Shown here: piece after piece, positions 1,075-14,643 of the stretch
Layout: the number at the start of each line of letters is the position of its first letter
How positions within the stretch are numbered: position 1 is the first letter of the stretch
From: an uncultured archaeon
Lineage (GTDB): Archaea; Asgardarchaeota; Jordiarchaeia; Jordiarchaeales; Jordiarchaeaceae
Assembly (NCBI GenBank): GCA_964510585.1
Contig: CAZECW010000024.1
Span: forward strand, 1 to 15,424
Length of the DNA stretch: 15,424 nucleotides
Reading direction: 5' to 3'
Translations under genes and position numbers: made by a program
The notes under the pieces: generated by a model
The model's input: the letters and a program-made list of their open reading frames with translations, nothing else
Database searches by the model: none
Told to the model about the DNA's origin: nothing

Positions 1075-2562
1075 TCACTCCATTTTTGGTCTCAGGTCTA
1101 GTATTCTTGTGGCCTTCAGCGAAGTTCTGGGATCAAAGATTTCGAAGGGCGACGAGACAAACTCTACATCAGGCCTCATCTCAGCAGCCTTAATAACAGC
1201 GTCTGTGATACCTTCCCTAACCTTTTCTAACGGCTCCTCCCCTGTTGGATAGACCCTTACTAAGAGTTTGTCTAGTGAGTAGGGGTCGCTGGAGTCAACT
1301 TTTGTGAAGATCACTTGGTACTCCATTATTCCCCCCACATTTTCTAGAGCGTCAACTAGAAGGCTTGGATTAATTAGGGTTCCCTTAACCTTAACCAGAT
1401 CCTTTGTTCGGAAAGTGTAAACGCTACCCGAAATGGGTATCATTCTCTCACTTGTTCTACCGCAGTGGGGGCAGGGTTCATAGGTAACCTTCCCAATGTC
1501 TCCCAGGAGGTATCTTAGGAGCACTGTGCCCCTCCTATTGAGGTGGGTCACTGCTACGTGGCCTTCCTCGCCTTCAGCTACACGTTCGCCAGTCTCAGGG
1601 TCTACAACTTCCACAAAGTAGAGGCTGGGATCCGGATTGTGGCAGCCAGCGAGTTCGGCGCACTCTGGAAAAGCACCCTGGCACTCGGTGAATCCATAGG
1701 CGTTGCCAATTGATGGAGCATCTGCACCCAGTTCCTCCAGTCTCCTTGTCATATCATCCCTCATACTTTTAGGGCAGGGCTCCCCCAGGGCATGTATCCC
1801 TCTCACATTTGAGAAGTCTACTCCCAATTCTTGGGCCCTCATGATGAATCTTCTCATGTAGCTTGCTATGCCCAATGCGCCGGTGCACTTGTAGGCTTCC
1901 ATGAGCCTTATGGCGTCGTCCATCCTTCTATGAATTGGAAAATCGGGGTGGGGCAATCCAGTGTGCCCCGCAACCACCGCGCACCCTGCAGCTAAAGATG
2001 CTGTGAGTGTTCTTATGTATGCCATGTGTGGAATTGGCCCCATGGGGAAGGCGTTAAATGTTATGTCTTCGCCTGGTACTGCATAACTGATCTTTGAGCT
2101 TCTTATGAAGAAAAGGTTTTGTGCGTAGAAGTCGTGGGTAGTATTATAGAAAATTGAGGGGATACCCATAGTTGTTCCTGTGGTCATGGTGACGTCCCAG
2201 AGGATTAGTTCGTAGAAGGGTCTCGAGGGGTCTAGCTTGAGCCGGAAGGCCTCTGGATTCTTCATGTAGTCAAACTTGCTTGTGAGTGGAAGCTTTTCCA
2301 AGTCATCAATGGTTTTTATGGATGAGGGATCAATGTCGCATTCCTTAAACAACGCGCTGTAGTAGGGGCTGTACTTTGCACATAGCTCCAATTGGACTCT
2401 GAGATTCTTGTTTCTAACCTCATTCAACTCTCTTTTTTCAAGAAATGCGGGGTCGCTCTTATCCTCCCGGTAGAGGGGAACCATATCAATGAATTTCTTC
2501 ACTTTTTCGGGGGTAACCACTCGGTCCCTCAACATTTCCTTAACTTTCTCTATTATAGTCAT
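1075..2562 (-). CDS. paaK: Phenylacetate-CoA ligase family protein (PaaK / coenzyme F390 synthetase-like adenylate-forming enzyme), 495 aa
   Basis: DLEKLPLTSK, P-loop TTGTTMGIP, YGFTE, GEEGHVAVTHLNRRGTVLLRYLLGDI and RTKDLVKVKG all follow the PaaK pattern. A purine-rich RBS lies upstream. The symbol is family-level and the substrate is unknown. Confidence 0.88.
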   Translation of the reverse strand: MTIIEKVKEMLRDRVVTPEKVKKFIDMVPLYREDKSDPAFLEKRELNEVRNKNLRVQLELCAKYSPYYSALFKECDIDPSSIKTIDDLEKLPLTSKFDYMKNPEAFRLKLDPSRPFYELILWDVTMTTGTTMGIPSIFYNTTHDFYAQNLFFIRSSKISYAVPGEDITFNAFPMGPIPHMAYIRTLTASLAAGCAVVAGHTGLPHPDFPIHRRMDDAIRLMEAYKCTGALGIASYMRRFIMRAQELGVDFSNVRGIHALGEPCPKSMRDDMTRRLEELGADAPSIGNAYGFTECQGAFPECAELAGCHNPDPSLYFVEVVDPETGERVAEGEEGHVAVTHLNRRGTVLLRYLLGDIGKVTYEPCPHCGRTSERMIPISGSVYTFRTKDLVKVKGTLINPSLLVDALENVGGIMEYQVIFTKVDSSDPYSLDKLLVRVYPTGEEPLEKVREGITDAVIKAAEMRPDVEFVSSPFEIFDPRTSLKATRILDLRPKME

Positions 2563-2786
2563 ATTCCCTCTCTCTCCAAAATATTTAGTTAATGTAATTT
2601 ATGTATATTTCAAAACTTATATAGCTTTTCGAGAATTTCAGTACTTGAAAAATAATAATTCGGAGCAAACTACCCTTTTAGGGATCAAGCCAAATTCTCC
2701 AAAATACTCCTTTTTGGAGATGAAAAGTAGGGATACTAATATTATATAAGGGTGTTTATCGAAAAAAATGGAGGAGGATTGAAAAA
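2563..2786. promoter_or_regulatory. Divergent archaeal promoter region with two TATA boxes and a 9-bp-arm inverted repeat
   Basis: Minus strand GAAAAGCTATATAAG (2630-2616, BRE plus TATA). Plus strand TTATATAA (2742-2749). TCTCCAAAA-N7-TTTTGGAGA at 2696-2720. RBS GGAGGAGG before ATG 2787. Confidence 0.6.
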
Positions 2787-4151
2787 ATGATGGAGAAGGA
2801 ATTTGATGCCGCCGTTGTAGGCGGAGGAATTGGTGGTTTCGGTGTTGCAGCTCAACTCCAGAAGATGGGTCTGAGAACTGTTCTTGTGGATGAGCATTCC
2901 CGGATAGGCGGGAGAGCAACCAGTTTTGAGTATATGAAGGGCTGGCTAATTGACATGGGTCACCATGGAATTAACTTGGCGGAAAAGTCTCAGATAAATG
3001 AGCTTGTTGAACTGGTGGGAAAGAAGATAGCTTGGGCTAAGCCCATAAGGGGGGTGCAGGTTTACCGGAAAAGGAAGTGGAGCAACTTCATTGAGGCCTT
3101 CGAACTTGATAGGAGTGACTTCGAGGAAATTGAAGTAATAACGAAAACCGTCAAAAAAATGAGCGACGAAGAAATTAACAGTTTGGACAACACATCGTTT
3201 AGAGACTGGATTCTACAATACACTGAGTCGGAAAACCTGCTGGAAATGTTTAGAACAATGGGTATGGGTTACACTACCATCCCAGACATGGAGTCACAGG
3301 CCGCCAGCGAAGTTCTATGGCTATACAGAGAAAACATGGAAAAAATGGGTGAATTTAGCGAAAGACCTGGGGGCGTTCCAATAGGCGGAGCCATAAGCCT
3401 AGTTAAGCCACTAGCAGAAGCATTTACTGAAAATGGGGGCATCATAAAACTTAGAACCAAGGCCGAAGAGGTTTTAATGAAGGATCAAAAGGCAATGGGC
3501 ATCCGGGTCCAAGAAAAGGGAGGAGAAGAATACACAGTTAAGGCGAGGTTAGTTGTTTGCGCCATACCCATAAATCGATTGTCCGAAATACTCTTCACCA
3601 AGGAGAATCTTCCACAATTGGAAGGTAGTTGGGTTAAGAGAATGGAGAGTGTAAAGGACCAGGTTTCAGCAAGTATAGGATACATTGCTGGCCTTTCAAA
3701 GCCAATTTACAGTGAAACATCCTTCAAATGTTCCCCCGAACTGCCTCACTCCAAGACTGCATTCCAAGTTTTTGCACAGTCAAATTGTGATGAAACTGTG
3801 GCACCGAAAGGCAAGATGCTCATCTCCATGGGGGCAGCAATCAAAAAATCAAAGGTCACCGACGAGGAATCACGAAAAAAACTATTCGAACTAATCTGGA
3901 TGGACGTCGAAGAAATGTTTCCAGGAATAAAGGAACTAGTAGAGTGGAATATTCCCGGATTCTTCATTGGACCGGACGGGCTGGAAAGAAAGCCGGGATT
4001 GGTAGGCAAGCTCCGACCAGACATCAAAGCTCCAGGAGTAGAGGGACTATACTTTGCAGGGGACAACTATAGGGGAAGGGGTGTAGGAGTAAACAATGCA
4101 GCCAGAAGTGCCATGATTTGCGCAGAACAAATATTCAAAGACTTAAAATAA
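2787..4151 (+). CDS. NAD(P)/FAD-dependent oxidoreductase, phytoene desaturase-like superfamily, 454 aa
   Basis: N-terminal dinucleotide motif VVGGGIGG...E-x5-GGRA, then IDMGHH, GGVPIGGAISLVKPLAEAF and C-terminal PGVEGLYFAGD...G-x-G-V-x-x-A. Strong RBS. Confidence 0.85.
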   Translation: MMEKEFDAAVVGGGIGGFGVAAQLQKMGLRTVLVDEHSRIGGRATSFEYMKGWLIDMGHHGINLAEKSQINELVELVGKKIAWAKPIRGVQVYRKRKWSNFIEAFELDRSDFEEIEVITKTVKKMSDEEINSLDNTSFRDWILQYTESENLLEMFRTMGMGYTTIPDMESQAASEVLWLYRENMEKMGEFSERPGGVPIGGAISLVKPLAEAFTENGGIIKLRTKAEEVLMKDQKAMGIRVQEKGGEEYTVKARLVVCAIPINRLSEILFTKENLPQLEGSWVKRMESVKDQVSASIGYIAGLSKPIYSETSFKCSPELPHSKTAFQVFAQSNCDETVAPKGKMLISMGAAIKKSKVTDEESRKKLFELIWMDVEEMFPGIKELVEWNIPGFFIGPDGLERKPGLVGKLRPDIKAPGVEGLYFAGDNYRGRGVGVNNAARSAMICAEQIFKDLK

Positions 4152-4187
4152 AAAATTTGGAAGAAGTGGGTTTTTTATTATTTTTTT
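4150..4187. terminator. Convergent oligo-T terminator zone between the flavoprotein and the first four-Cys protein
   Basis: T6 (4171-4176) and T7 (4181-4187) on the plus strand after the stop at 4151. The A-run at 4150-4155 gives oligo-T on the minus strand after the stop at 4178. Confidence 0.5.
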
Positions 4188-4645
4188 ATTTCTAAGACTA
4201 TGTTGCAGTGGTCGTCTCCTTTTGCCAGGCATTTGGTTATTGAAAGCTGGGCTTTGGGATTCATTTTGGCTAACATTGCTCCGCCCCAATCGTATATGAG
4301 TAAGTCGCAGAACTGGGGGCAGGTCTTTATGTATCTAACAAGGGGGCAGAATGATTCTCTTTTCACCATTTTGTTGGGGGATGTTTCTACCCACTCTCCC
4401 TTAACTCCCATGATCTCATCCATGTAATCCACTACTTTTGCCATGTCCTTCGCATTAGACGCATTTACCTGGAGTGCTTTTTGCAACAGAGGGCCGAATT
4501 CTTTGCCCCATTGTTGGAAATCCTCTTTTAATACTTGTAGTGCTTCGTCTCCGAACTCTTTGAAGACTGGAACAAGAATATTTTGGATAAACATTCCCAT
4601 GCTGTTCACGGTAAGCTTCCATTTTTGTTCTATGGGCATTTCCAT
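4178..4645 (-). CDS. Small four-Cys protein, V4R / L-2-amino-thiazoline-4-carboxylate-hydrolase-like fold, paralog 1, 155 aa
   Basis: C100-P-x7-C109-P-x-F-C113-x33-C147, ending TKCLAKGDDHC, typical of V4R/ATC-hydrolase-like domains. GGAGG RBS. Aligns without gaps to paralogs 2 and 3. Confidence 0.85.
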   Translation of the reverse strand: MEMPIEQKWKLTVNSMGMFIQNILVPVFKEFGDEALQVLKEDFQQWGKEFGPLLQKALQVNASNAKDMAKVVDYMDEIMGVKGEWVETSPNKMVKRESFCPLVRYIKTCPQFCDLLIYDWGGAMLAKMNPKAQLSITKCLAKGDDHCNIVLEIKK

Positions 4646-4924
4646 TTTTTTATTCCTCCGTGTTAATTTCCTCCTATAATCGAGGAGGTATTAAAGTGTT
4701 ATGGCGATAATTGCTCATAATGTTAAAAAAACTTTAGTTAAAAGAAGTTTTATTATTAAATTTTAATTTTAAATATTTAAAATTCTTAATTAATATATGA
4801 AAATTTATAATGAATTACCTTATCTTTAAATTAAACAAAAAAATTATATATAACATCATTATATGTTAAAAAAACTTACATCCTTTTCAAAGGGTGGAGT
4901 TTTTAAATAAAAAAGAGAGGAGAG
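4646..4924. promoter_or_regulatory. AT-rich divergent promoter region with repeats
   Basis: 15-bp direct repeat ATGTTAAAAAAACTT (4720-4734 and 4863-4877). Inverted repeat TAACAT-N6-ATGTTA (4851-4868) next to TTATATA (4844-4850). 20-bp palindrome AATTTTAAATATTTAAAATT (4765-4784). CCTCCT-N7-AGGAGG (4670-4688). Confidence 0.6.
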
Positions 4925-6520
4925 ATGAGAGTGTCTTCTTATGAAGAATACCCTTTTAGACGCCTTGTTTTGGGTCCGATTTTGACAAGGAACGCCAACA
5001 AGTATCCCGCCCGCCCAGCCATCGTCGATCTTTTCCGAAACAAAAGATTCACCTACAAAGAATTCAATGATCGCGTCAACTCCCTAGCGAACGGCCTCTT
5101 AGACCTAGGCATTCGCCCAGGCGACCATGTGGCAATTATGTTCTTTAATGAACATAGAATTCTTGAGTCATATTTTGCCGTTTGGAAAATAGGGGCGGTA
5201 GCCGCACCCCTTAACTTCCGCTACGGACCCAATGACCTGAGATATGTTTTGCCTCATTCCGACTCTGTAGCCCTAATATTTAGTGGAGACGTCTTGCCCG
5301 TTGTGAATGAGGTTAAAAAAGATGTGAAAAATGTAAAACATTATATTTGTGCGAGTGACAACCCACCTCAAGACATGCATAGCTACGAGGAACTTATAAG
5401 GAAATACCCCAACACTGAGATACCTGGAAAATACTGGCCCCACGACGATGACCCCTGTCTACTTCTTTACACAGCAGGAACCACAGGAAGACCAAAGGGA
5501 GTAATTCACACTCATAAAGATCGTTACATAGCAATATGTGATTACAACATACATGTAGGGTCGAGGCCTTTTGGTGTAACAGGTGTAATTACACCCATAT
5601 TTCACTGTTCCGCTCTCACTGGACTCTTAGCAACAATATACGTTGCCGGAAAGTGTGTAATTATGATGCCCGGCCCACCAGAGCAGTTCTTAGAGGCCTT
5701 AGATAAGGAAAAAATAGAAGCCACATTCCAAATACCGGTTATGTGGATTTGGACCGTTCGCTCACCTAAATTTGGGGAATACGATGTCAGTTCCCTGAAA
5801 CATTTGGTTACAGGTGCCCAACCCACTCCACTCACAGTAAAAAAGGAATTGATGGAAAAGTTCCCAAACGCAATGTTCCACGACCAATTCGGCCAAACTG
5901 AGGCTTTGCCGCCAGCCACAGATCTCAACTCAGAGTTCTGTGACATATATGGAAAGGCCGACTCTCTTGGAGTCCCCCTGTTCTGCGTAGAGGTCAGAGT
6001 TGTTGATGAGAACGGCAACGATGTTCCCCCTGGAGAAATTGGAGAGGCGGTATACCGAAGCCCACATATAATGACTGAATACTACAAGGATCCAGAAAAA
6101 ACTAAGGCTGCATTTGAGGGAGGCTGGTTCCATAGCGGAGACATGGTGCGCAAGGACAAAGATGGATACATTTATTTTGTCGAGAGAAAGGATGACATGA
6201 TTATTACGGGTGGCGAGCATGTCTATCCCACGGAGATAGAGGAGGTTCTTTACACACATCCCAAAGTTATGGAGGCTGCGGTTATTGGTGTTCCCAGCGA
6301 AAAGTGGGGACAAACTCCAAAGGCATTCATAGTCCTGAAGAAGGGTGAAAAAGCCACCGAAAAGGAGATTCTCGACTATTGCAAAGACAAACTAGCAGGA
6401 TACAAGAAGCCCACAATGATTGAATTCGTGGAATCCATACCAAAAAGTGTAGTGGGAAAAACACTCCGAAAAGTCCTCAGAGACATGGAAAGAGAAAAAT
6501 ACGAGAAAAGCAAAAAGTAG
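4925..6520 (+). CDS. fadD: Long-chain-fatty-acid--CoA ligase-like AMP-binding enzyme, 531 aa
   Basis: LYTAGTTGRPKGV, QFGQTE, GWFHSGD, RKDDMIITGGEHVYPTEIE and KSVVGKTLR are class I adenylate-forming acyl-CoA synthetase motifs. The symbol is family-level and the chain-length preference is unknown. Confidence 0.9.
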   Translation: MRVSSYEEYPFRRLVLGPILTRNANKYPARPAIVDLFRNKRFTYKEFNDRVNSLANGLLDLGIRPGDHVAIMFFNEHRILESYFAVWKIGAVAAPLNFRYGPNDLRYVLPHSDSVALIFSGDVLPVVNEVKKDVKNVKHYICASDNPPQDMHSYEELIRKYPNTEIPGKYWPHDDDPCLLLYTAGTTGRPKGVIHTHKDRYIAICDYNIHVGSRPFGVTGVITPIFHCSALTGLLATIYVAGKCVIMMPGPPEQFLEALDKEKIEATFQIPVMWIWTVRSPKFGEYDVSSLKHLVTGAQPTPLTVKKELMEKFPNAMFHDQFGQTEALPPATDLNSEFCDIYGKADSLGVPLFCVEVRVVDENGNDVPPGEIGEAVYRSPHIMTEYYKDPEKTKAAFEGGWFHSGDMVRKDKDGYIYFVERKDDMIITGGEHVYPTEIEEVLYTHPKVMEAAVIGVPSEKWGQTPKAFIVLKKGEKATEKEILDYCKDKLAGYKKPTMIEFVESIPKSVVGKTLRKVLRDMEREKYEKSKK

Positions 6521-6610
6521 CATAACCACTTAATAACATAATATAAAAAATCATTACCTTTTCTCCTTTATTTTTTTGGATTAAACTGATAAATTCTGGA
6601 GTTGATGATT

Positions 6611-7078
6611 TTGGAGATGACCCTTGAGCAAAAGTGGAAGTTAGCTGTGAATAGTATGGGTATGTTTATGCAGCACCTGCTGGTTCCCATATTGAGAAAA
6701 TTTGGGGAGAGAGGCTACAGGGTTATGGAAAAATATTTCAGAGAGCAGGGTGAAGCCTTAGGTCCCCTAGTTGTTAAAGCCTTAAACATAGAGAAACTGG
6801 ATGCTGAAGGTGCTGCCAAGATAATAGACTATCAAGACACCATTCTGGGAGTGGAGGGCAGATGGGTGGAACGCACACCCAAAAGAGCTGTAAAGGTGGA
6901 GCACTTCTGTCCTATGTACCGATACATAAAGGACTGTCCCCAGTTTTGTGACCTCATCATATGGGCTTGGGGAGAAGCACAAGTAAAGAAACTTAACCCC
7001 AAAGCAAAGGTTCTATTTCCCAAACGCATGGTTGACGGAGACGAGACCTGCGAAGTAATCATTGAAATAGAATATTAA
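6611..7078 (+). CDS. Small four-Cys V4R/ATC-hydrolase-like protein, paralog 2, 155 aa
   Basis: Start moved to TTG 6611, which sits 5 nt after GGAGTTGA and aligns with the paralog 1 start. Cys at 100/109/113/147. About 77 of 155 residues are identical to paralog 1 by hand count. Confidence 0.85.
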   Translation: MEMTLEQKWKLAVNSMGMFMQHLLVPILRKFGERGYRVMEKYFREQGEALGPLVVKALNIEKLDAEGAAKIIDYQDTILGVEGRWVERTPKRAVKVEHFCPMYRYIKDCPQFCDLIIWAWGEAQVKKLNPKAKVLFPKRMVDGDETCEVIIEIEY

Positions 7079-7238
7079 AAACTGAGATTCCAATCCCAAT
7101 TTTTGCCCATTTAGAAAAGAAGCCTAGTGGACTAAAATTTTGGAAAAATTTCCCTTTGTGAGCAATATAGACCTATTTATTTACTGATTATTAGAGCTAT
7201 TCTTCAAAAAAGGGGGAGAGTTAGGTTTGTGGGATTTT

Positions 7239-9146
7239 CTATGGTGGGAGTCCTAACTCTTTAAGTTTTTCTTTAGTGGGAATGCCGTTTTTGTCCCATC
7301 CTCGTTCATCGTAGTAGTCGTCGATTAGTTTTTCCACATCCGCTTTTGTGTACTGTTTGGTCATGTAGTAGTCCTTCCACCAGAACTCCATGTTGCCCAG
7401 TTTTAGAGGTTCCTCAAGCCACTTTTGAGGGTAGCTGTCATCCTTTCTTGAGAAACCTTCGCGAATATTAATGATTCTTTGAAGATTGTTGATTTTTTCA
7501 CCGAATCTAAGGAGCTCCCTTGCAGTAATTTCGACACCAGTCGCTGCGGTGAACAGTTCTGTTACGGTGTTGAGGTTGTAATTAACGGCTATGGGATGTC
7601 TAAAACAAATTCCCAAGATATTCATTACACCATACCAGTCTTCGATCCACTTTGTGAATCTTGCCATGTTGAGTTCCGGTTGAAAAATGTTGGTCATTCT
7701 GTCTTCTGGTACTCCTATCCGGTTACAGTGCCTCATCAACTTGTCGGGGGTTCTTCCGGGCACCATGGTTGGTGATAATGCCGGTACAACGTGGAAGCCC
7801 CCTCTGGGATTCACAATTTGCTCAAAACACTCCGAGTTAAAAATCATTCGTGGATCACTCAGAACATCTAACCCCTTGATGATAAAAGCATACTTCTCCG
7901 CTTCTTCACCAAACCTCCTAATGCACGAAAGCCACCCTTCAGCAAGTATATTTCCCAAGCCCTGCCTATTTGTAATCTGTTCAACAAGTGTTTTCGCAGT
8001 TTCAAAGTTTCTCATGAGTTCCAAGCCCTCGGTGACATCGTCGCTAATTATTCCCCTCTCATAAAGGTCTATAGCATAGTCTATTATCGCTGAGGTTGTT
8101 ACTGTTTCCAGCCCATAATCGTTTGCCATTTCCTCCAGTTTAACCCCTCTACTATAGTCCTGCAAGTCAAATCTTATCCCCCAAAATACCGCAACTCCTC
8201 CGAAATGTGCCATAGTGGCCTTCAAACCCTTGTACTCTCCATCCATAGCTTCCATCTTGAACTTGCAACCAATGGGGCAAGTGGGACAAGCAATATTTGA
8301 CCTCTTTACTTTCTCAAGTACTTTAATGCCATAAAGCTTGTTGGCTTGGCCTGGAGGATATAGTTCGCTCCAGTTCTTGTAAGGATAAGTGATTTCTGGG
8401 AAAGAGCCCCAAGCATACATTGAACCTTGTCTTGACCATCTCTCCCTGTCAGGCCACTGTCTAATGTTCTCAATTATGGGATTAATCAGTTGCCTGAACT
8501 TCTTTTTGTTCGCAACCCTTATGCCCTTGGTGCCTTTAACAACTACTGCCTTCAATTTTTTAGAACCCATAAGTGCCCCTAGGCCACCTTTACCGAGGGT
8601 ACTTGCCTTGTTTATCAGAGAGAAACTGAACCTAACCAGATTTTCTCCCGCCTGTCCAATAGCTTGCACCGCGCAGTCGTGTCCAAACTGCTTCCACAAT
8701 TCATCTGTGGTGTGCCGGATGCCCTTGCCCCAGAGGTGACTTGCATCCCCCAACTCCACGTCATCGTCAAAAATCTTGATGTAAACCGGCTCTTCAGACT
8801 TTCCAGTAATCACTAGATAATCGTAACCCGCGTATTTTAGCTGGTGTGCTAAACCCAAACCACCAGCAGCCGGAGCAACCACACCGTTAAGGGGAGCCTT
8901 GTAAACAGCGAACATCTTGGTGGCTCCGGGTACAGAGGTTCCTACCAATATGCCTGTTCCGTAGATTATGGGGTTCTGTGGAGATAGTGGATCTATTCCT
9001 GGTTTTATTAAGTCGTAGGCTAGTTTGAACTGTATTCCCCATCCTCCAAGAAACTCCTTTTTCAGACTTTCCTTTAGCTCCTCTTTTTTCACGCTTCCCT
9101 CTTTCAAGTCGACGTAAAGAATATTTCCACCATAAGGCTCATCCAT
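7239..9146 (-). CDS. aor: Aldehyde:ferredoxin oxidoreductase family (tungsten-pterin, [4Fe-4S]) protein, 635 aa
   Basis: Start moved to ATG 9146 (MDEPYGGNILYVDL), preceded by a GGAGGT RBS. Motifs include GALMGSKKLKAVVVKG, CPTCPIGC, SDPR, NPRGGFH and the C-terminal YYDERGWDKNGIPTKEKLKELGL. The symbol is family-level. Confidence 0.92.
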   Translation of the reverse strand: MDEPYGGNILYVDLKEGSVKKEELKESLKKEFLGGWGIQFKLAYDLIKPGIDPLSPQNPIIYGTGILVGTSVPGATKMFAVYKAPLNGVVAPAAGGLGLAHQLKYAGYDYLVITGKSEEPVYIKIFDDDVELGDASHLWGKGIRHTTDELWKQFGHDCAVQAIGQAGENLVRFSFSLINKASTLGKGGLGALMGSKKLKAVVVKGTKGIRVANKKKFRQLINPIIENIRQWPDRERWSRQGSMYAWGSFPEITYPYKNWSELYPPGQANKLYGIKVLEKVKRSNIACPTCPIGCKFKMEAMDGEYKGLKATMAHFGGVAVFWGIRFDLQDYSRGVKLEEMANDYGLETVTTSAIIDYAIDLYERGIISDDVTEGLELMRNFETAKTLVEQITNRQGLGNILAEGWLSCIRRFGEEAEKYAFIIKGLDVLSDPRMIFNSECFEQIVNPRGGFHVVPALSPTMVPGRTPDKLMRHCNRIGVPEDRMTNIFQPELNMARFTKWIEDWYGVMNILGICFRHPIAVNYNLNTVTELFTAATGVEITARELLRFGEKINNLQRIINIREGFSRKDDSYPQKWLEEPLKLGNMEFWWKDYYMTKQYTKADVEKLIDDYYDERGWDKNGIPTKEKLKELGLPP

Positions 9147-9151
9147 TTTTG

Positions 9152-9400
9152 TTATACCTCCTTCACAAGCTCTAGAGTTCCATAAACGCAGAACTTGGCG
9201 CAGATTCCGCACTGATTACAGTCCTCAGTAAAGGTGATTTTGTTTCCGTTTGTGGGATTAATAATAATTCTGGCGGCAGATGGGTTAAATGTGTCAGTAT
9301 AGTTGAAGGAGCAGGCCAGCTGACAGCTCTGACACCCCGAACATTTTTCCGGATGTACAAGGATCTTCCACTTTTTACTTTCCGCCGTTTTTACCACCAC
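9152..9400 (-). CDS. Small 2x[4Fe-4S] ferredoxin-type protein, likely electron-transfer partner of the AOR
   Basis: CSGCQSCQLAC and CNQCGICAKFC motifs. Packed between the ligase stop (9402) and the AOR start (9146). The start codon is uncertain (see findings). Confidence 0.9.
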   Translation of the reverse strand: MVVKTAESKKWKILVHPEKCSGCQSCQLACSFNYTDTFNPSAARIIINPTNGNKITFTEDCNQCGICAKFCVYGTLELVKEV

Positions 9401-9401
9401 A

Positions 9402-10946
9402 TCATTTCCCGGAGTAGATTTTTCTTAGCTCTCTTTTTAGAACCTTACCCGCCGCAGTCATTGGCATAGTTTCGGCAAAAACCACTTTTTTGGGAGCTTT
9501 ATAGTGCGCCAGTCTCGCTCTACAGTGCTCAATTATTTCTTTTTTGAGTTCCTCGCTGGGCTTTATTCCTGGTTTCAACTGTACCACTGCCATGGGAACC
9601 TCTCCCCACTTTTCATCAGGTGTACCTATTACACCCACAAACATCACAGCCGGATGGCTCTGTATAACATTTTCCACTTCAACTGGGTACACGTTTTCGC
9701 CTCCAGTCTTTATCATATCCTTCTTCCTATCAACGATGTATACGTATCCCTGCTCATCCATTCTTGCCAAGTCCCCTGTGTGGAACCAGCCTCCCCTCAA
9801 AGCCTCAGCTGTTTCTCTCGGCCTCTTCCAATACTCCTTCATTACGCGGTCTCCTTTGACAATAATCTCGCCAACCTCACCTACTGGAACATCCACATCC
9901 TCGTCGTCAACTATCCTGACTTGGACGCCCATCATCTCTTTCCCACATGAAGTTATGGTTTTGTAATTTTCCGCCTCTATCTTTTCCCTGGTTTCATTAT
10001 AGAGAAGTACTGTAGCTGTGGTTTCAGCACAGCCGTACGATTGTGCGATGCCTCCGGGGAAAATTTCCATAGACTTTTTAGCTATTGTTTCTGAGAGGGG
10101 AAAAGCCCCGAAAACTGAGCCTCTAATACTGCTGAAATCATATTTTTCAATGTTGGGTATTGAAAAGAGAAAGTAGGCCATAGTAGGAACTAGCGGGCAG
10201 CAATTGATTTTTTCATTCTGAATCACTTCTGCAATCTCTTGGGGATTGAAACCTCTAAGGGTTACATTAACGCCGCCGCCCCAGAAGCAGGTTATGGGTA
10301 TTAGAACCGCAACATGAAAGTAAGGGAAAACGTAGAGCAGTTTGTCTCTAGGATAGAAGCCATAGTGTACCATATAGTCGTAAGCCATAGATACTGCTCC
10401 CTTATGTGTTAACACTGCTCCCTTAGGTACTCCCGTTGTTCCGCTAGTGTACTGAATCATAAAGGGATCGTCCTCACGTAGATCGACTTCTGGGTTAGTC
10501 GCAGGATTATTCTTTATTAAGTCCTCGTAGTACCGCATACCTTCAATGGGCTTTTCAAAGCAGATATAGAATTTTACGGTTTTCAGATCAGACTTTATTG
10601 ATTTTAGGAGTTCTAAATAGCTTTCACCGATTATGAGTGTGTTGGCTTCACTGTCATTTATTTGGTAGGCTATTTCTTGACCCGAAAGTCTAATGTTTAA
10701 GGGCACAGCTATGGCTCCGACCTTGAAAATAGCAAATAGCGTTTCCAAGTATTGGTGACAGTTGCCTTGTAAGATGGCTACTCTGTCGCCCTTCTTTATT
10801 CCGATACTAAGCAGACCATTTGCAAGCCTATAGATCCTCTCTCCAAATTGTCTAAAGTTAAATCTTTTTTTCTGAGTGATGTCTACAAAACACAACTCGT
10901 TGGCATGTCTTCTGATGGCCATATCTACCATATCGCCTAATAACAT
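9402..10946 (-). CDS. fadD: Long-chain-fatty-acid--CoA ligase-like AMP-binding enzyme, 514 aa
   Basis: YTSGTTGVPKGA, SYGCAET, GWFHTGD, RKKDMIKTGGENVYPVEVE and AAGKVLKRELR. Start moved to ATG 10946, which lies 5 nt after a GGTGG RBS. The symbol is family-level. Confidence 0.9.
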   Translation of the reverse strand: MLLGDMVDMAIRRHANELCFVDITQKKRFNFRQFGERIYRLANGLLSIGIKKGDRVAILQGNCHQYLETLFAIFKVGAIAVPLNIRLSGQEIAYQINDSEANTLIIGESYLELLKSIKSDLKTVKFYICFEKPIEGMRYYEDLIKNNPATNPEVDLREDDPFMIQYTSGTTGVPKGAVLTHKGAVSMAYDYMVHYGFYPRDKLLYVFPYFHVAVLIPITCFWGGGVNVTLRGFNPQEIAEVIQNEKINCCPLVPTMAYFLFSIPNIEKYDFSSIRGSVFGAFPLSETIAKKSMEIFPGGIAQSYGCAETTATVLLYNETREKIEAENYKTITSCGKEMMGVQVRIVDDEDVDVPVGEVGEIIVKGDRVMKEYWKRPRETAEALRGGWFHTGDLARMDEQGYVYIVDRKKDMIKTGGENVYPVEVENVIQSHPAVMFVGVIGTPDEKWGEVPMAVVQLKPGIKPSEELKKEIIEHCRARLAHYKAPKKVVFAETMPMTAAGKVLKRELRKIYSGK

Positions 10947-11058
10947 TACAACCACCTTAAACTTTTAAATAAAATTTTTAATTTTTAACTATTCATATTT
11001 AATATTTCCTGAAATATACGAACCACAATTATGTTTCAAAAAAATTATATCTACTATG

Positions 11059-11526
11059 CTAGTCTTCTACCCACACACTACCAGAGCATATATCGTCTCC
11101 CCGCGCTAACAGCTTATCAAAAGACATTTTTACTTTGGGATTCAACTCACGATACATTGACGCAATCCAAGCGGCCATAATATCCACACAGAACTCGGGG
11201 CAATCCATAAGATCGCTCAAAATGGGACAATACGTTACATGCTTTGTAGCTCTTTTGGGGCCCCGCTCAACCCACTTCCCCTTAACTCCTATAAGAGTAT
11301 CTTGCCAATCAATGATTTTCGCCAAGTCGTCAGCATCAAGCTTCTCCAAGTTTAACAGGTTCTTCATTACAGGAGCCATAAACTTTCCCAAGTTGTCAAA
11401 ATGTTCCCTCAAAACATTCAGAAACCGGTCTCCAAACCTCTTTTTAAGGGGCACCATTAAGTGATGAACAAACATTCCCAAAGTTTTAGAAGCAAGTTCC
11501 CATTTCCTCTCAATCGGCATCTCCAT
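11059..11526 (-). CDS. Small four-Cys V4R/ATC-hydrolase-like protein, paralog 3, 155 aa
   Basis: Start moved to ATG 11526 (5 nt after GGTGA; MEMPIERKW aligns with MEMPIEQKW of paralog 1). Cys at 100/109/113/147, ending LLARGDDIC. Confidence 0.85.
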   Translation of the reverse strand: MEMPIERKWELASKTLGMFVHHLMVPLKKRFGDRFLNVLREHFDNLGKFMAPVMKNLLNLEKLDADDLAKIIDWQDTLIGVKGKWVERGPKRATKHVTYCPILSDLMDCPEFCVDIMAAWIASMYRELNPKVKMSFDKLLARGDDICSGSVWVED

Positions 11527-11629: not shown

Positions 11630-12751
11630 CTATTTTACTGAGAGAAGAGCTCTGTCAATTGCATCAATGATGGGTTTGGCAATGTCTTCAGGGGAAATTG
11701 CTAGGTAATCTACCCCTTTGGTGTGATAATGCTCGCTAATTTTGCTCTTAATTAACTCTTTGTTAGTGGCGTCCAATCCTTTTAGTGCCTGTTCTAGGGC
11801 ATCCGCCGAATTTGGCGGAACAACCATAAAGTCTCCGCAAATCATGATGTCCGCAATTTTCTTATTTCTATCAATTAGTACATCGGCGGTTATCAGTTTT
11901 CTAGCTTTGAATTTGGCTTTAGCATAGCCGTAGCCCTCTTGTATTTTGGCGAATCTCCTCTTTGAAGATCTTAAAAATTTAAATTCATCTTTGGAACACT
12001 TATCGATGGTATCCTTCAAAGCCTTACTTTCATCCTCAGTTAATGACCTCTCCTCCAGTTTAACACCCAAAACCTCGTCAAGACGCCTAGCAAGTGCCTC
12101 TATATAGTCCCTTGTACTTATCTTCCTACCCGCCTCATCGGAAGCATTTACCACGTATTGCTCAATGCCACTCACACCCTTATCCAAGAACTTTTCGGGG
12201 GGTATGTTTAAGACCTGTTTCAGTAACTCTGGATTCTTTGGTGGCCTCAGATTTACGAATCCTCCTGAACCATAGATTCCAAGGCTGGCTATGTAGAAGT
12301 ATGACGAACCTCCTATTTTCCTCTCTCCTATTTTCATATCTCCTGGATGAACGTATCTCACGTTTTTAGCTCCTAGTAGTTTTAGCGCTCCAACCATAAT
12401 ACCTTCTATGAATTCCTTCATCATAGTTTCAGGGTCACTCCAATGCTTCTCATAGCTTTGTTTGTTAAGCATCGCCACAAGAGTGGGACTCCCCTCGTGG
12501 TAAAGAACATGCCCCGCACCAATAAATCTGCGGCAAATTGAGACTCCATACTTTTCACATTTGTCTACATGTAGTTCTTCGTCTATGTCTCCATAGTAAC
12601 CGAGAGCCATCGTAGGTCCGGTATAGTCTGTTATATACATTGTTGGGGGAATTTTTCCAAAAGCTAAAAGTAGAGGAGCGCTAGTCTGCTGAAAGGTTGC
12701 GAGATGCGCATCGCCCTTCATGTAAACTAGGCTCCACAAATCTTCGGACAA
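11630..12751 (-). CDS. lplA: Lipoate--protein ligase family protein, catalytic and C-terminal domains fused
   Basis: ICRRFIGAGHVLYHE corresponds to the RRxxGGGxVYHD motif. GDMKIGERKIGG carries the catalytic-Lys motif, and IADIMICGDF...LEQALKG marks the C-terminal domain. The likely start is TTG 12751 after GAGGTG; the ORF track uses GTG 12760. Confidence 0.8.
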   Translation of the reverse strand: MSEDLWSLVYMKGDAHLATFQQTSAPLLLAFGKIPPTMYITDYTGPTMALGYYGDIDEELHVDKCEKYGVSICRRFIGAGHVLYHEGSPTLVAMLNKQSYEKHWSDPETMMKEFIEGIMVGALKLLGAKNVRYVHPGDMKIGERKIGGSSYFYIASLGIYGSGGFVNLRPPKNPELLKQVLNIPPEKFLDKGVSGIEQYVVNASDEAGRKISTRDYIEALARRLDEVLGVKLEERSLTEDESKALKDTIDKCSKDEFKFLRSSKRRFAKIQEGYGYAKAKFKARKLITADVLIDRNKKIADIMICGDFMVVPPNSADALEQALKGLDATNKELIKSKISEHYHTKGVDYLAISPEDIAKPIIDAIDRALLSVK

Positions 12752-12760
12752 AATACACAC

Positions 12761-12968: not shown

Positions 12969-13805
12969 ATGAAAAACTTGTGCAAATTGTGCGACTTGTT
13001 TGGTGGTGGAGAAACTTGGTATTTTAAACCCGAAAACTATGCTCGAAACATATACAAACTAAGAACGCCGGGGCACAAGGCGGGCTCCGGTAAGGATCCT
13101 GAAACTGTTGCTGGGGAGCTTATGATGGGAGCTCTCCAAGTGAAATTTAATAACCCCGAGAAATTTCCCCAACTAAGAGAGGAAGTCAACAAAAAACTGC
13201 TAGAAGTAAACATATGTCAAGTTGTAACACTGGAGGAATGTAACTACATAATCGAGAATTTAGCGCACCCACTTGCTTTAGTCTCTTGCATCTGCAGACG
13301 TTTACTCCGCGCAAGGGAGGAGACAGATTGGGATAGCTACTCCTGCCTAGCCATTGGAGTGGGGGTCTATAAATGGGAAAGGTGGCCCGAGAGATATAAG
13401 GGAGGTGTTTTATTTGTTTCGCCACAGGAGGCTAAGGAGTGGATTGCCAATTGGGATAAAAAGGGTATGGTTCACCTAGTAATGACCTTTGGTTCCCCCT
13501 ATATAGGAGGAATCTGCAACTGCGACTATGACTGTTTGGCACTGAGGATGCGTCAGTTCTATGATTTTGAATATGTACTTAAAGGACACTATGTGGCCAA
13601 AATTGACTTTGAAAAGTGCAAGGGCTGTGGAACTTGCGCCACAAGATGCCAGTTCGGAGCGATAAGAAAAATTGTGACTAGGAACAAGTTTGTAATTGAC
13701 ATGACCAAGTGCTATGGATGCGCAGTCTGTGTAACAGGCTGTAAAAATGATGCAATCAGCCTAATAAAGCGGGAAAGCTCACCCTCCTTAAAAAATCTGT
13801 GGTGA
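12969..13805 (+). CDS. Cys-rich 4Fe-4S dicluster-domain protein of unknown function, 278 aa
   Basis: C-terminal CKGCGTCATRC and CYGCAVCVTGC ferredoxin motifs, plus an upstream Cys-rich domain (CKLC, SCICR, SC, GICNCDYDC). Confidence 0.85.
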   Translation: MKNLCKLCDLFGGGETWYFKPENYARNIYKLRTPGHKAGSGKDPETVAGELMMGALQVKFNNPEKFPQLREEVNKKLLEVNICQVVTLEECNYIIENLAHPLALVSCICRRLLRAREETDWDSYSCLAIGVGVYKWERWPERYKGGVLFVSPQEAKEWIANWDKKGMVHLVMTFGSPYIGGICNCDYDCLALRMRQFYDFEYVLKGHYVAKIDFEKCKGCGTCATRCQFGAIRKIVTRNKFVIDMTKCYGCAVCVTGCKNDAISLIKRESSPSLKNLW

Positions 13806-13811
13806 TTGAAT

Positions 13812-14060
13812 ATGAGCAAGACTGTACCTAAGATAAGAATTGATAACTCCAAATGTACCACACCTTTTGCTTGCAAAAAGTGTTTGGAAATATGTCCTCA
13901 AGGAGTTTTTGGGGTGATGGCGATTAAAAACGAAATGTATAAAGAGACCGATCCTAAAGAGCCTGGATCTTATCTTCTCATGCCCCTACTAGCTGATAGA
14001 TGTGTGATATGTGGGGACTGCATTAATGCGTGCCCCGTTAGCGCAATAAAAATCAGTTGA
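13812..14060 (+). CDS. Small 2x[4Fe-4S] ferredoxin-type protein, 82 aa
   Basis: CTTPFACKKCLEICP (C-x5-C-x2-C-x3-CP) and CVICGDCINACP. Start moved to ATG 13812, 6 nt after a GGTGA that overlaps the upstream stop. Confidence 0.88.
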   Translation: MSKTVPKIRIDNSKCTTPFACKKCLEICPQGVFGVMAIKNEMYKETDPKEPGSYLLMPLLADRCVICGDCINACPVSAIKIS

Positions 14061-14070
14061 GGAATGGACT

Positions 14071-14643
14071 TTGACCGAAATGTATTTTGATATTAACCAA
14101 AAAATCATCGACGCAATATATGAGGAATTCAACGCAGAAAAAACAGTAAACAAATTAGTTAAAAAAACCTCAGAATTAATAGGCGCAGAACTGGAGGATA
14201 CATTGAAAAATTTTTTCACAGAGTACGGCCTGAGTCTTATGATGAGAGCTCTTGACCTGGGCGAAAGATACCAAGATACAACCTATAAAGTAATAAAGGC
14301 TCACGCAGGAAAAGTTGGACCGTTTCCGAACGTACCCCAAAGGTTCATTGAAATATGTTACCTTAGTGTACTTCAAATAGAGAAACTTACTATAACGGAG
14401 AGCAATCTTAAGAAACTGGGCTACAAGATAGAAAAGTGTTCAATCTATAACACAATCAGAGAGAAAATGGGTGAAAAAGTATCCAATCAAATGTTCTGCA
14501 AACATGCATGTTCCACACTAGCCAAAACATTGTATGAGAATATGAAAATTGAAACTGATTTCCACATTAAGGCACTAATGGCAAAGGACAACTACTGCTA
14601 CTTTGTCTCAGAGAAAAAAACAAATCAGAAAAATAAAATCTAG
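14071..14643 (+). CDS. Hypothetical protein with a C-terminal four-Cys V4R-like motif, ~190 aa
   Basis: Third gene of a tightly spaced run. KC-x19-C-x3-C-x28-C ending LMAKDNYCYF parallels the LAKGDDHC ending of the 155-aa paralogs. The start may be TTG 14071 or ATG 14080. Confidence 0.75.
   Translation: MTEMYFDINQKIIDAIYEEFNAEKTVNKLVKKTSELIGAELEDTLKNFFTEYGLSLMMRALDLGERYQDTTYKVIKAHAGKVGPFPNVPQRFIEICYLSVLQIEKLTITESNLKKLGYKIEKCSIYNTIREKMGEKVSNQMFCKHACSTLAKTLYENMKIETDFHIKALMAKDNYCYFVSEKKTNQKNKI

What the first reader, a model, noticed from the sequence alone, without database searches (positions are those of the whole stretch)
4178..11526. Candidate undescribed system: three 155-aa four-Cys V4R-like paralogs, each next to an acyl-CoA ligase
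Seen: once starts are set by RBS spacing, all three genes are 468 bp, align without gaps, and keep C100-x8-C109-x3-C113-x33-C147 plus W9, G17-M-F, D-x-x-D, GV-x-G-x-WVE, W120, NPK and GD. Paralog 1 is divergent from ligase 1, paralog 2 follows ligase 1, and paralog 3 precedes ligase 2 and the ferredoxin-AOR genes. Paralogs 1 and 2 share only about half their residues, so these are not recent identical copies. Established: V4R domains (the effector-binding region of XylR/DmpR) belong to a fold group with H-NOX and TRAPP Bet3 that binds small hydrophobic ligands, and V4R Cys residues bind zinc. These proteins have no DNA-binding or catalytic fusion. Inference: they are stand-alone metal-binding (Zn or Fe-S) acyl or lipid carrier, sensor or substrate-delivery partners of the ligases, each perhaps tuned to a different acid. 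The automatic label ATC hydrolase would hide this.
Basis: partly seen in the sequence, partly recalled or inferred. Interest (0 to 1): 0.82.

Follow-up and report, generated by a model that had tools for sequence, protein, structure and literature searches.

The report
Three zinc-cysteine Bet3/V4R-fold paralogs
Three small cysteine-rich proteins in an Asgard archaeon's fatty-acid and aldehyde gene island are real members of a known ligand-binding fold family (Bet3/V4R), but comparison with other genomes does not support the idea that they are dedicated partners of the neighbouring acyl-CoA ligases.

Summary
Three 155-aa paralogs (41-50% identical) align without gaps and keep all four Cys and every listed motif. 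All three are under strong purifying selection (dN/dS 0.04-0.06).

They belong to the Pfam ATC_hydrolase (PF14196) sequence family. A confident AlphaFold2 model (pLDDT 96) has the Bet3/TRAPPC3 - V4R - H-NOX fold. C100, C113 and C147 are family-wide. C113 and C147 align with zinc ligands of Shewanella H-NOX. The fourth Cys sits at different positions in different relatives, as expected for a Zn site.

The three genes arose by one lineage-specific triplication, found only in one genus-level Freyarchaeota/Lokiarchaeia lineage. Among 78 other Asgard loci, 3 have a FadD-like ligase within about 7 kb, which is about chance. Relatives sit beside many different enzymes of organic-acid metabolism: GlcD/CCG oxidases, AOR, 2-hydroxyacyl-CoA dehydratase, glycyl-radical enzymes and acyl-CoA dehydrogenases.

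Stand-alone four-Cys Zn TRAPPC3/V4R proteins of Asgard archaea, proposed to bind ligands, are already published with crystal structures (PMC10933270). So is the shared Cys cluster of V4R and ATC hydrolase (PMC5847659).

Most likely these are small Zn-stabilised ligand-binding accessory proteins of this island. They are a new member of a known kind and of modest interest.

The parts
4178..4645 (-). Paralog P1, 155 aa. ATC_hydrolase-family protein with the Bet3/V4R fold. Cys at 100, 109, 113, 139 and 147.
   Evidence: ORF and translation; PF14196 at 40.2 bits, cut-off 28.1; AF2 pLDDT 96; fold matches; dN/dS 0.04 against L007
4646..4924 (.). AT-rich 279-bp divergent intergenic region between P1 and ligase 1, with an AT palindrome at 4754-4795.
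   Evidence: Sequence; inverted repeat I1; no Rfam match. A promoter or operator role is only inferred.
4925..6520 (+). Ligase 1, a FadD-like AMP-forming acyl-CoA ligase of 531 aa.
   Evidence: PF00501 + PF13193; NCBIfam PRK06187 at 466.7 bits, just under the 476 cut-off; 38% identical to ligase 2
6611..7078 (+). Paralog P2, 155 aa if it starts at TTG 6611 (alternative starts at 6602, 6605 and 6617).
   Evidence: No Pfam hit on its own at E<=0.01, but 215 bits to the family HMM. dN/dS 0.06.
7239..9212 (-). Tungsten-type aldehyde:ferredoxin oxidoreductase (AOR). The true start is probably near 9146-9161, just after the ferredoxin stop.
   Evidence: AFOR_N + AFOR_C. The L007 orthologue is 640 aa and starts 5 nt after the ferredoxin.
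9152..9400 (-). Small 2x[4Fe-4S]-type ferredoxin of 82 aa.
   Evidence: Fer4 family hits
9402..10955 (-). Ligase 2, a long-chain-fatty-acid--CoA ligase subfamily protein of 517 aa.
   Evidence: PF00501 + PF13193; PRK06187 at 508 bits, above the 476 cut-off. Beyond its own lineage, the nearest relatives are about 46% identical bacterial fatty-acid ligases.
11059..11526 (-). Paralog P3, 155 aa from ATG 11526 (the ORF reaches 11538). First gene of the run P3-ligase 2-ferredoxin-AOR.
   Evidence: PF14196 at 20.4 bits, below the cut-off. 207 bits to the family HMM. dN/dS 0.05.
11630..12760 (-). LplA-like lipoate/octanoate-protein-ligase-fold gene upstream of P3 on the same strand. It is syntenic in the related genomes.
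   Evidence: PF21948; NCBIfam LplAB/LplB partial hits, all far below cut-offs; synteny in L007, L008 and L042; about 12 paralogues in the genome

Best explanation
P1, P2 and P3 are stand-alone, non-fused members of the ATC_hydrolase (PF14196) branch of the Bet3/TRAPPC3 - V4R - H-NOX fold superfamily. Each is a helix-plus-sheet protein of about 18 kDa. Its C-terminal beta-sheet is tied to a helix by a tetrahedral Cys4 metal site, most likely structural Zn2+. Three ligands are fixed (C100, C113, C147) and the fourth, specific to this clade, is C109. As in Bet3, MopR/PoxR and Thor-TRAPPC3, the fold probably encloses a cavity for a small, largely hydrophobic ligand. The three genes arose by one lineage-specific triplication inside a conserved island that handles carboxylic acids and aldehydes. 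That island holds an LplA-like gene, P3, ligase 2, a ferredoxin, AOR, P2, ligase 1 and P1. The most likely role is an accessory ligand-binding protein that buffers, carries or senses the acids or aldehydes processed there, not an obligate ligase subunit. Shown: the sequence family, the fold, the Cys conservation pattern, purifying selection, the single-event origin and the heterogeneous neighbourhoods. Inferred: the metal identity, the cavity and ligand, and any protein partner.
For: Family: PF14196 hit for P1, and 66 of 101 relatives match PF14196, with a few matching MetOD1, V4R or DUF6125. The ESM Atlas neighbours carry the same families. Fold: AF2 pLDDT 96, pTM 0.87. Foldseek E-values of 1e-6 to 1e-4 to TRAPPC3, MopR, DmpR, PoxR and H-NOX. 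VIA-align Z 12.9 to Bet3, 10.8 to MopR and 9.8 to Thorarchaeota TRAPPC3 7yh3. Metal site: C100 is present in 119/119 relatives, C113 in 114/119 and C147 in 116/119. The family profile aligns C113 and C147 with Shewanella H-NOX C139 and C172, which are zinc ligands (PMC7108781). The fourth Cys wanders between positions 109 (25 sequences), 139 (17), 146 (16) and elsewhere, as reported for Asgard TRAPPC3/V4R Zn sites (PMC10933270). Real genes: dN/dS 0.04-0.06. Single origin: the three paralogs with their orthologues from G121 and L007 form one clade (SH-aLRT 93). Island conserved while one flank differs. Published precedent for ligand binding by Zn-Cys4 Asgard TRAPPC3.
Against: No ligand, metal or partner has been measured. 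The model's coordinates are not exposed by the tools, so Cys convergence and cavity size could not be checked. Family-wide invariant acidic and polar residues (D73, D76, E87, N129, D144) look more like an active or specific binding site than a passive lipid pocket. The family's founding member is reported to be an enzyme. The varied neighbourhoods give no single ligand class beyond 'organic acids and acyl-CoA metabolism'.
Confidence: 0.45

Rival explanations
1. They are dedicated ligase partners. Each paralog would bind and deliver a different acid to, or regulate, its adjacent acyl-CoA ligase through direct protein-protein contact.
For: All three lie within 300 nt of a FadD-like ligase, and this arrangement is kept in three related genomes despite near-saturated synonymous divergence (dS 1.4-1.9). 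Three independent relatives also sit near a ligase (L051/L058 and L116), and one further superfamily member in this genome lies 3.3 kb from a ligase on contig C62.
Against: The adjacency is one evolutionary event, and the orientations differ: divergent, downstream and upstream. Outside the lineage, 3 of 78 Asgard loci have a ligase within about 7 kb, against about 4% expected from 5-16 AMP-binding genes per genome. The nearest outgroups sit in GlcD-like/CCG operons or after an AOR. The nearest ligase homologues have no such neighbour. The two ligases are only 38% identical, so no protein-ligase pair was duplicated as a unit.
Confidence: 0.15
2. They are small Zn-dependent enzymes of the ATC-hydrolase type that act on an intermediate of the island, using the Cys-bound metal or the conserved acidic residues for hydrolysis or ring-opening chemistry.
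For: P1 passes the Pfam cut-off for PF14196, whose founding member is reported to cleave the thiazoline ring. D73, D76, E87, N129 and D144 are conserved. In the wider family 31 of 119 relatives have only the three core Cys in the C-terminal region, which could leave an open coordination site.
Against: In this clade a fourth Cys (C109) would fill the coordination sphere. P2 and P3 do not reach the Pfam cut-off. All structurally characterised relatives of the fold found here are binding or sensor proteins, not enzymes. Identity to any characterised ATC hydrolase was not established.
Confidence: 0.2
3. They are thiol/redox switches. The Zn-Cys4 site would be oxidised to disulfides under oxidative stress, changing conformation and modulating the oxygen-sensitive enzymes nearby (AOR, ferredoxins).
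For: The homologous Zn-Cys site of heme-free Vibrio H-NOX works as a reversible redox sensor (PMC7108781). Relatives recur next to C_GCAxxG_C_C 'redox-active' proteins in both Asgard and bacterial contigs, and next to oxygen-sensitive enzymes such as AOR, glycyl-radical enzymes, 2-hydroxyacyl-CoA dehydratase and CCG proteins.
Against: No output domain or identified target. The association with anaerobic enzymes may simply reflect the lifestyle of the hosts. The extra Cys positions are not conserved.
Confidence: 0.12

Closest known systems
[quoted passage not shown]
   Same: Direct sequence family. P1 scores 40.2 bits (cut-off 28.1), and 66 of 101 collected relatives match. They share the three-Cys cluster noted for this family (PMC5847659).
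   Different: P3 scores below the cut-off and P2 gives no hit at E<=0.01. This clade adds a fourth Cys (C109). Nothing here links the genes to ATC or cysteine metabolism, and enzymatic activity is untested.
Asgard TRAPPC3/V4R proteins (Thorarchaeota TRAPPC3, PDB 7yh3 and 7yh2; PMC10933270)
   Same: Stand-alone Asgard proteins of about 155 aa with the same fold (VIA Z 9.5-9.8). Zn is bound by four Cys that tie the sheet to a helix. They have internal cavities and a proposed ligand-binding role.
   Different: A different sequence family (PF04051 TRAPP versus PF14196). The positions of the metal ligands differ. The published proteins are discussed in a membrane-trafficking context, not inside a catabolic enzyme island.
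V4R effector-binding domains of MopR / DmpR / PoxR (PF02830)
   Same: Same fold (Z 10-11). The Zn site lies in the same region. P1 even keeps the C-x7-C spacing (C139...C147) seen in H-NOX and, from memory, in these V4R sensor domains. They bind small hydrophobic ligands.
   Different: Those are N-terminal domains of sigma-54 activators with AAA+ and HTH outputs, whereas these proteins stand alone. The three paralogs give no PF02830 hit. The third metal ligand has moved to C100.
Eukaryotic Bet3/TRAPPC3 (for example 6aq3, 1wc8)
   Same: Best structural matches (Foldseek E 9e-7; Z 12.9 over 145 residues). Bet3 holds a fatty acyl chain in its cavity.
   Different: Identity is 12-15%. The three paralogs have no Cys before residue 100, so the Bet3 acylated Cys has no counterpart (the position mapping is inferred). 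Bet3 lacks the Zn site.
H-NOX sensors with a Zn-Cys site (Shewanella oneidensis 4u9b, Vibrio cholerae)
   Same: The only PDB sequences reached by the family profile (E 0.002). C113 and C147 align with Zn ligands C139 and C172.
   Different: The three paralogs share no invariant His for heme ligation. Only the C-terminal 48 residues align by sequence.

Membership tests
Pfam PF14196 ATC_hydrolase | Score at or above the curated gathering cut-off (28.1 bits) | tested here: inconclusive
   P1 scores 40.2 bits (met). P3 scores 20.4 bits (below). P2 has no hit at E<=0.01. All three form one clade with PF14196-positive relatives.
Pfam PF14196 ATC_hydrolase | Conserved three-Cys cluster shared with V4R and MetOD1 | tested here: met
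   C100 in 119/119, C113 in 114/119 and C147 in 116/119 relatives. The cluster is described in PMC5847659.
Pfam PF14196 ATC_hydrolase | Hydrolysis of L-2-amino-thiazoline-4-carboxylate | not testable with these tools
   Needs an enzyme assay. No cysteine or ATC pathway genes are in the window.
V4R domain (PF02830; XylR/DmpR/MopR/PoxR sensor) | Match to the PF02830 profile | tested here: not met
   No hit for P1-P3 at E<=0.01. Only 1 of 101 relatives hits, at E 0.006.
V4R domain (PF02830; XylR/DmpR/MopR/PoxR sensor) | Fold of the effector-binding domain | tested here: met
   VIA Z 10.1-10.8 over 146-148 residues to MopR, DmpR and PoxR; Foldseek E 2e-5
V4R domain (PF02830; XylR/DmpR/MopR/PoxR sensor) | Zn site with ligands at the canonical positions (Cys, Glu/His, C-x7-C) | tested here: inconclusive
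   Two positions are homologous (C113, C147). The C-x7-C partner (position 139) is Cys only in P1. C100 and C109 replace the others. Geometry could not be measured because the coordinates are not exposed.
TRAPP Bet3 family (PF04051) | Profile match, and the acylated Cys in the N-terminal helical half | tested here: not met
   No PF04051 hit. No Cys before residue 100 in any paralog. The fold itself matches (Z 12.9).
H-NOX (PF07700) | Proximal heme-ligating histidine | tested here: not met
   No invariant His among the three paralogs. Only the C-terminal Zn-site segment aligns.
   3 of 78 Asgard loci outside the lineage, against about 4% expected. None of the metagenomic relatives examined has a ligase nearby.

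The most novel reading that the evidence does not exclude
The three paralogs could be acyl-chain-binding Bet3-like proteins, perhaps assembling into hetero-oligomers as the TRAPP Bet3-family subunits do. In that reading they take up the fatty acid, aldehyde or acyl-CoA made by the adjacent AOR and long-chain ligases and pass it between enzymes. This would be an archaeal, metabolic forerunner of the fatty-acyl binding seen in eukaryotic Bet3.
Probability: 0.1. Interest if true: 0.65.

Novelty: new member of a known kind. Interest (0 to 1): 0.3.

Why it matters
If these proteins do carry or sense fatty acids or aldehydes, they would give a concrete metabolic role to the many stand-alone Bet3/V4R-like proteins of Asgard archaea. 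This genome alone has about 15. The superfamily is usually discussed only as an ancestor of eukaryotic trafficking components. As things stand, the result mainly corrects an over-reading. The gene-ligase adjacency is one lineage-specific event. The family as a whole is a promiscuous accessory of anaerobic organic-acid enzymes with no single conserved partner. The label 'ATC hydrolase' is uninformative here, but 'new system' is not warranted either.

Tried and rejected
1. Co-folding of ligase 2 with P3, using alignments A4 and A5, gave 'no answer' (score 0.00). It is neither support nor evidence against binding.

I used the genome search plus fetch from genomes instead.

3. A PDB sequence search with the three-sequence profile gave only spurious helical hits such as interferon gamma. 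The 101-sequence profile reached H-NOX.

4. AOR looked like a candidate general partner. It is immediately upstream of relative P0008 and within 7 kb of 5 of 13 loci of one 173-aa clade. It was absent from all 40 loci of the second batch, so I rejected it as a family-wide rule.

5. Fourth V4R-like gene at 14071-14643. The broad family HMM gives E 4.8e-5, but hhalign probability is only 1.6% and the AF2 model is unusable (pLDDT 45). This is undecided.

6. Rfam and repeat scans of the island found nothing relevant.

8. One literature query was too loose and returned nothing useful. A search for BchJ/V4R carrier literature found nothing relevant.
Full report
**What is in the window.** The window is the whole of contig C24 of a 3.78-Mb Asgard MAG that is 96% complete. 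Its closest database relatives are labelled Candidatus Freyarchaeota or Lokiarchaeia. The gene map is:
- PaaK-like adenylate-forming enzyme, 1075-2562(-)
- FAD amine-oxidase-like protein, 2787-4151(+)
- P1, 4178-4645(-)
- FadD-like ligase 1, 4925-6520(+)
- P2, 6611-7078(+)
- AOR, 7239-9212(-)
- ferredoxin, 9152-9400(-)
- ligase 2, 9402-10955(-)
- P3, 11059-11526(-)
- LplA-like protein, 11630-12760(-)
- two Fe-S proteins, 12969-14060(+)
- a 190-aa protein of unknown family, 14071-14643(+)
- the start of a URO-D/MtaA-like gene, 15048 onward

**The observation.** It is confirmed.
- The three 155-aa proteins align without a gap, and 45 columns are invariant.
- Pairwise identities are 39-50%.
- They are under strong purifying selection against their orthologues in a related genome (dN/dS 0.04-0.06).
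- The equal length depends on a TTG start for P2. The orthologous codon in L007 is GTG, which fits a start codon, but the start is not proven.

**Family and fold.**
- P1 passes the Pfam cut-off for PF14196 (ATC_hydrolase). P3 is below the cut-off and P2 gives no hit.
- A full HMMER scan of 1.84 billion representatives found only 139 relatives at E<=0.001. The nearest outside the paralogs' own cluster are 31-41% identical.
- Of 101 relatives, 66 match PF14196, and a few match MetOD1, V4R or DUF6125.
- An AF2 model of P1 built on these relatives is confident (pLDDT 96, pTM 0.87).
- Its best PDB matches are eukaryotic Bet3/TRAPPC3 (Foldseek E 9e-7; VIA Z 12.9 over 145 residues). Next come the MopR/DmpR/PoxR V4R sensor domains (Z 10-11), Thorarchaeota TRAPPC3 7yh3/7yh2 (Z 9.5-9.8), V4R protein MJ1460 (Z 8.2) and H-NOX (Z 6.7).

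**The metal site.**
- Across 119 relatives, C100 (119/119), C113 (114/119) and C147 (116/119) are near-invariant. C109 is present in only 25.
- The fourth Cys wanders: position 109 in 25 sequences, 139 in 17, 146 in 16, and another position in many others. Thirty-one sequences have only the three core Cys in this region.
- The family profile's only significant PDB sequence hits are Shewanella H-NOX entries. There C113 aligns with C139 and C147 with C172, and both are zinc ligands (PMC7108781).
- P1 also keeps the H-NOX/V4R C-x7-C spacing (C139-C147).
- Three fixed ligands plus one movable ligand is what Tran et al. report for Asgard TRAPPC3/V4R Zn sites, which tether the sheet to a helix and create cavities (PMC10933270).
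- I therefore favour a structural Zn(Cys)4 site over an Fe-S cluster. I could not measure the Cys geometry because coordinates are not exposed.

**Origin of the three copies.** In a maximum-likelihood tree the three paralogs, each with its orthologues from G121 (same genus) and from GCA_041862095.1 (L007), form one clade (SH-aLRT 93). P3 is sister to P1 plus P2 (the quick tree). Four other genomes of the same genus lack the cluster and keep only a distant family member. The core order, from the LplA-like gene through P3, ligase 2, ferredoxin, AOR, P2 and ligase 1 to P1, is kept in the three genomes, while the flank beyond P1 differs. The ligases are only 38% identical to each other, and the three protein-ligase arrangements differ in orientation. 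'Each paralog next to a ligase' is thus one evolutionary event in one lineage, not three independent observations.

**Neighbourhood test.** A profile search of 400 Asgard genomes found family members in 195. I fetched about ±7 kb around 78 loci outside the lineage.
- A FadD-like ligase was present in 3 of the 78 loci: L051 and L058, which belong to one near-identical clade, and L116.
- Five sampled genomes of 2.3-4.2 Mb carry 5-16 AMP-binding genes each. This predicts about 4% by chance, so there is no enrichment.
- The closest Asgard outgroups (G005, G003, G006, G008) place the gene in a tight operon with an FAD_binding_4 (GlcD-like) oxidase and a CCG/Fer4_8 protein.
- Other clades sit beside PFL-like glycyl-radical enzymes, an aminotransferase, an RraA-like aldolase, acyl-CoA dehydrogenase, CMD, an alpha/beta hydrolase and C_GCAxxG_C_C proteins.
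- Metagenomic relatives follow an AOR (P0008), a MoeA gene (P0010) or a 2-hydroxyacyl-CoA dehydratase with its activator (P0016). Others precede a DUF6125 paralogue near ECH and thiolase genes (P0171), or a C_GCAxxG_C_C protein near an acyl-CoA dehydrogenase (P0163).
- The nearest homologues of ligase 2 lie in ordinary bacterial beta-oxidation clusters without such a gene.
- AOR recurs in one 173-aa clade and next to P0008, but not in the second batch of 40 loci.
- The common theme is anaerobic organic-acid and acyl-CoA redox metabolism, with no conserved partner.
- This genome alone holds about 15 superfamily members. That lowers the surprise of finding some next to any given enzyme family.

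**Interpretation.**
- Best reading (about 0.45): Zn-stabilised proteins of the Bet3/V4R fold that bind a small ligand and act as accessory carrier, buffer or sensor for the acids or aldehydes processed by the island.
- An enzymatic role of the ATC-hydrolase type (about 0.2) is kept alive by the conserved D73, D76, E87, N129 and D144.
- A thiol-redox switch (about 0.12) is suggested by the H-NOX precedent and the recurrent oxygen-sensitive neighbours.
- The idea that BchJ, a V4R protein, acts as a substrate carrier rather than a reductase is from my memory only and was not verified here.

**Comparison with what is known.** Galperin et al. 2018 already link V4R, ATC_hydrolase and MetOD1 through a three-Cys cluster. 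Tran et al. 2024 already show stand-alone, dimeric, four-Cys Zn TRAPPC3/V4R proteins in Asgard archaea and propose ligand binding. The present genes add a triplicated ATC_hydrolase-family clade embedded in a ligase/AOR island. That makes them a new member of a known kind and of modest interest.

**Earlier scan notes.** Notes on this genome report further V4R-like genes in other modules. One sits next to a ligase. One is an HTH-V4R regulator beside a GlcDEF-like set. One is a possible fourth V4R-like gene at 14071-14643 of this window. They fit the picture of a pervasive, promiscuous domain. I could only partly test them.

Noticed in passing
window 14071-14643 (+): This 190-aa protein ends a three-gene Fe-S module. 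Its C-terminal C...C-x3-C...C motif weakly resembles the paralogs: broad family HMM E 4.8e-5, but hhalign probability 1.6% and an unusable AF2 model (pLDDT 45). It has two 28-29% identical paralogues elsewhere in the genome, on contigs C8 and C7.
   Followed up: partly
whole genome G000 (contigs C25, C20, C196, C214, C105, C70, C62, C191, C150, C76, C79, C9): The genome carries about 15 members of the ATC_hydrolase/V4R-like superfamily, some fused or tandem (for example proteins of 396-566 aa with two hits). Other families are also expanded: at least 17 FadD-like ligases, about 9 PaaK-like enzymes, 10 AORs and about 12 LplA-like genes.
   Followed up: partly
L064 (G307:C5:353000-372000), L061, L063: One Asgard family (f28) has arrays of up to eight tandem family members within 9 kb, a much larger local expansion than the three copies in this window.
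   Followed up: no
L043 (G005:C20) and L044 (G003:C194); also L045 and L046: The nearest outgroup homologues form a tight operon: family member, then a GlcD-like FAD_binding_4 oxidase, then a CCG/Fer4_8 Fe-S protein. In L043 this operon is divergent from a fused 3-hydroxyacyl-CoA dehydrogenase/enoyl-CoA hydratase. This was the most recurrent partnership seen in the Asgard sample.
   Followed up: partly
contigs C208 and C203 of G000 versus window 1075-4151: Contig C208 holds a 96% identical copy of the PaaK-like gene, and C203 holds a 93% identical copy of the FAD oxidase. This suggests a second strain or a duplicated segment in the MAG, whose contamination estimate is 4.8%.
   Followed up: no
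window 11630-12760 (-): The LplA-like gene is kept upstream of P3 in all related genomes. It scores far below every NCBIfam lipoate-ligase cut-off and has about 12 paralogues in the genome. Its substrate is unknown.
   Followed up: no
window 4754-4795: A 21+21-nt AT-rich palindrome lies in the divergent P1/ligase 1 intergenic region. It could be an operator.
   Followed up: no
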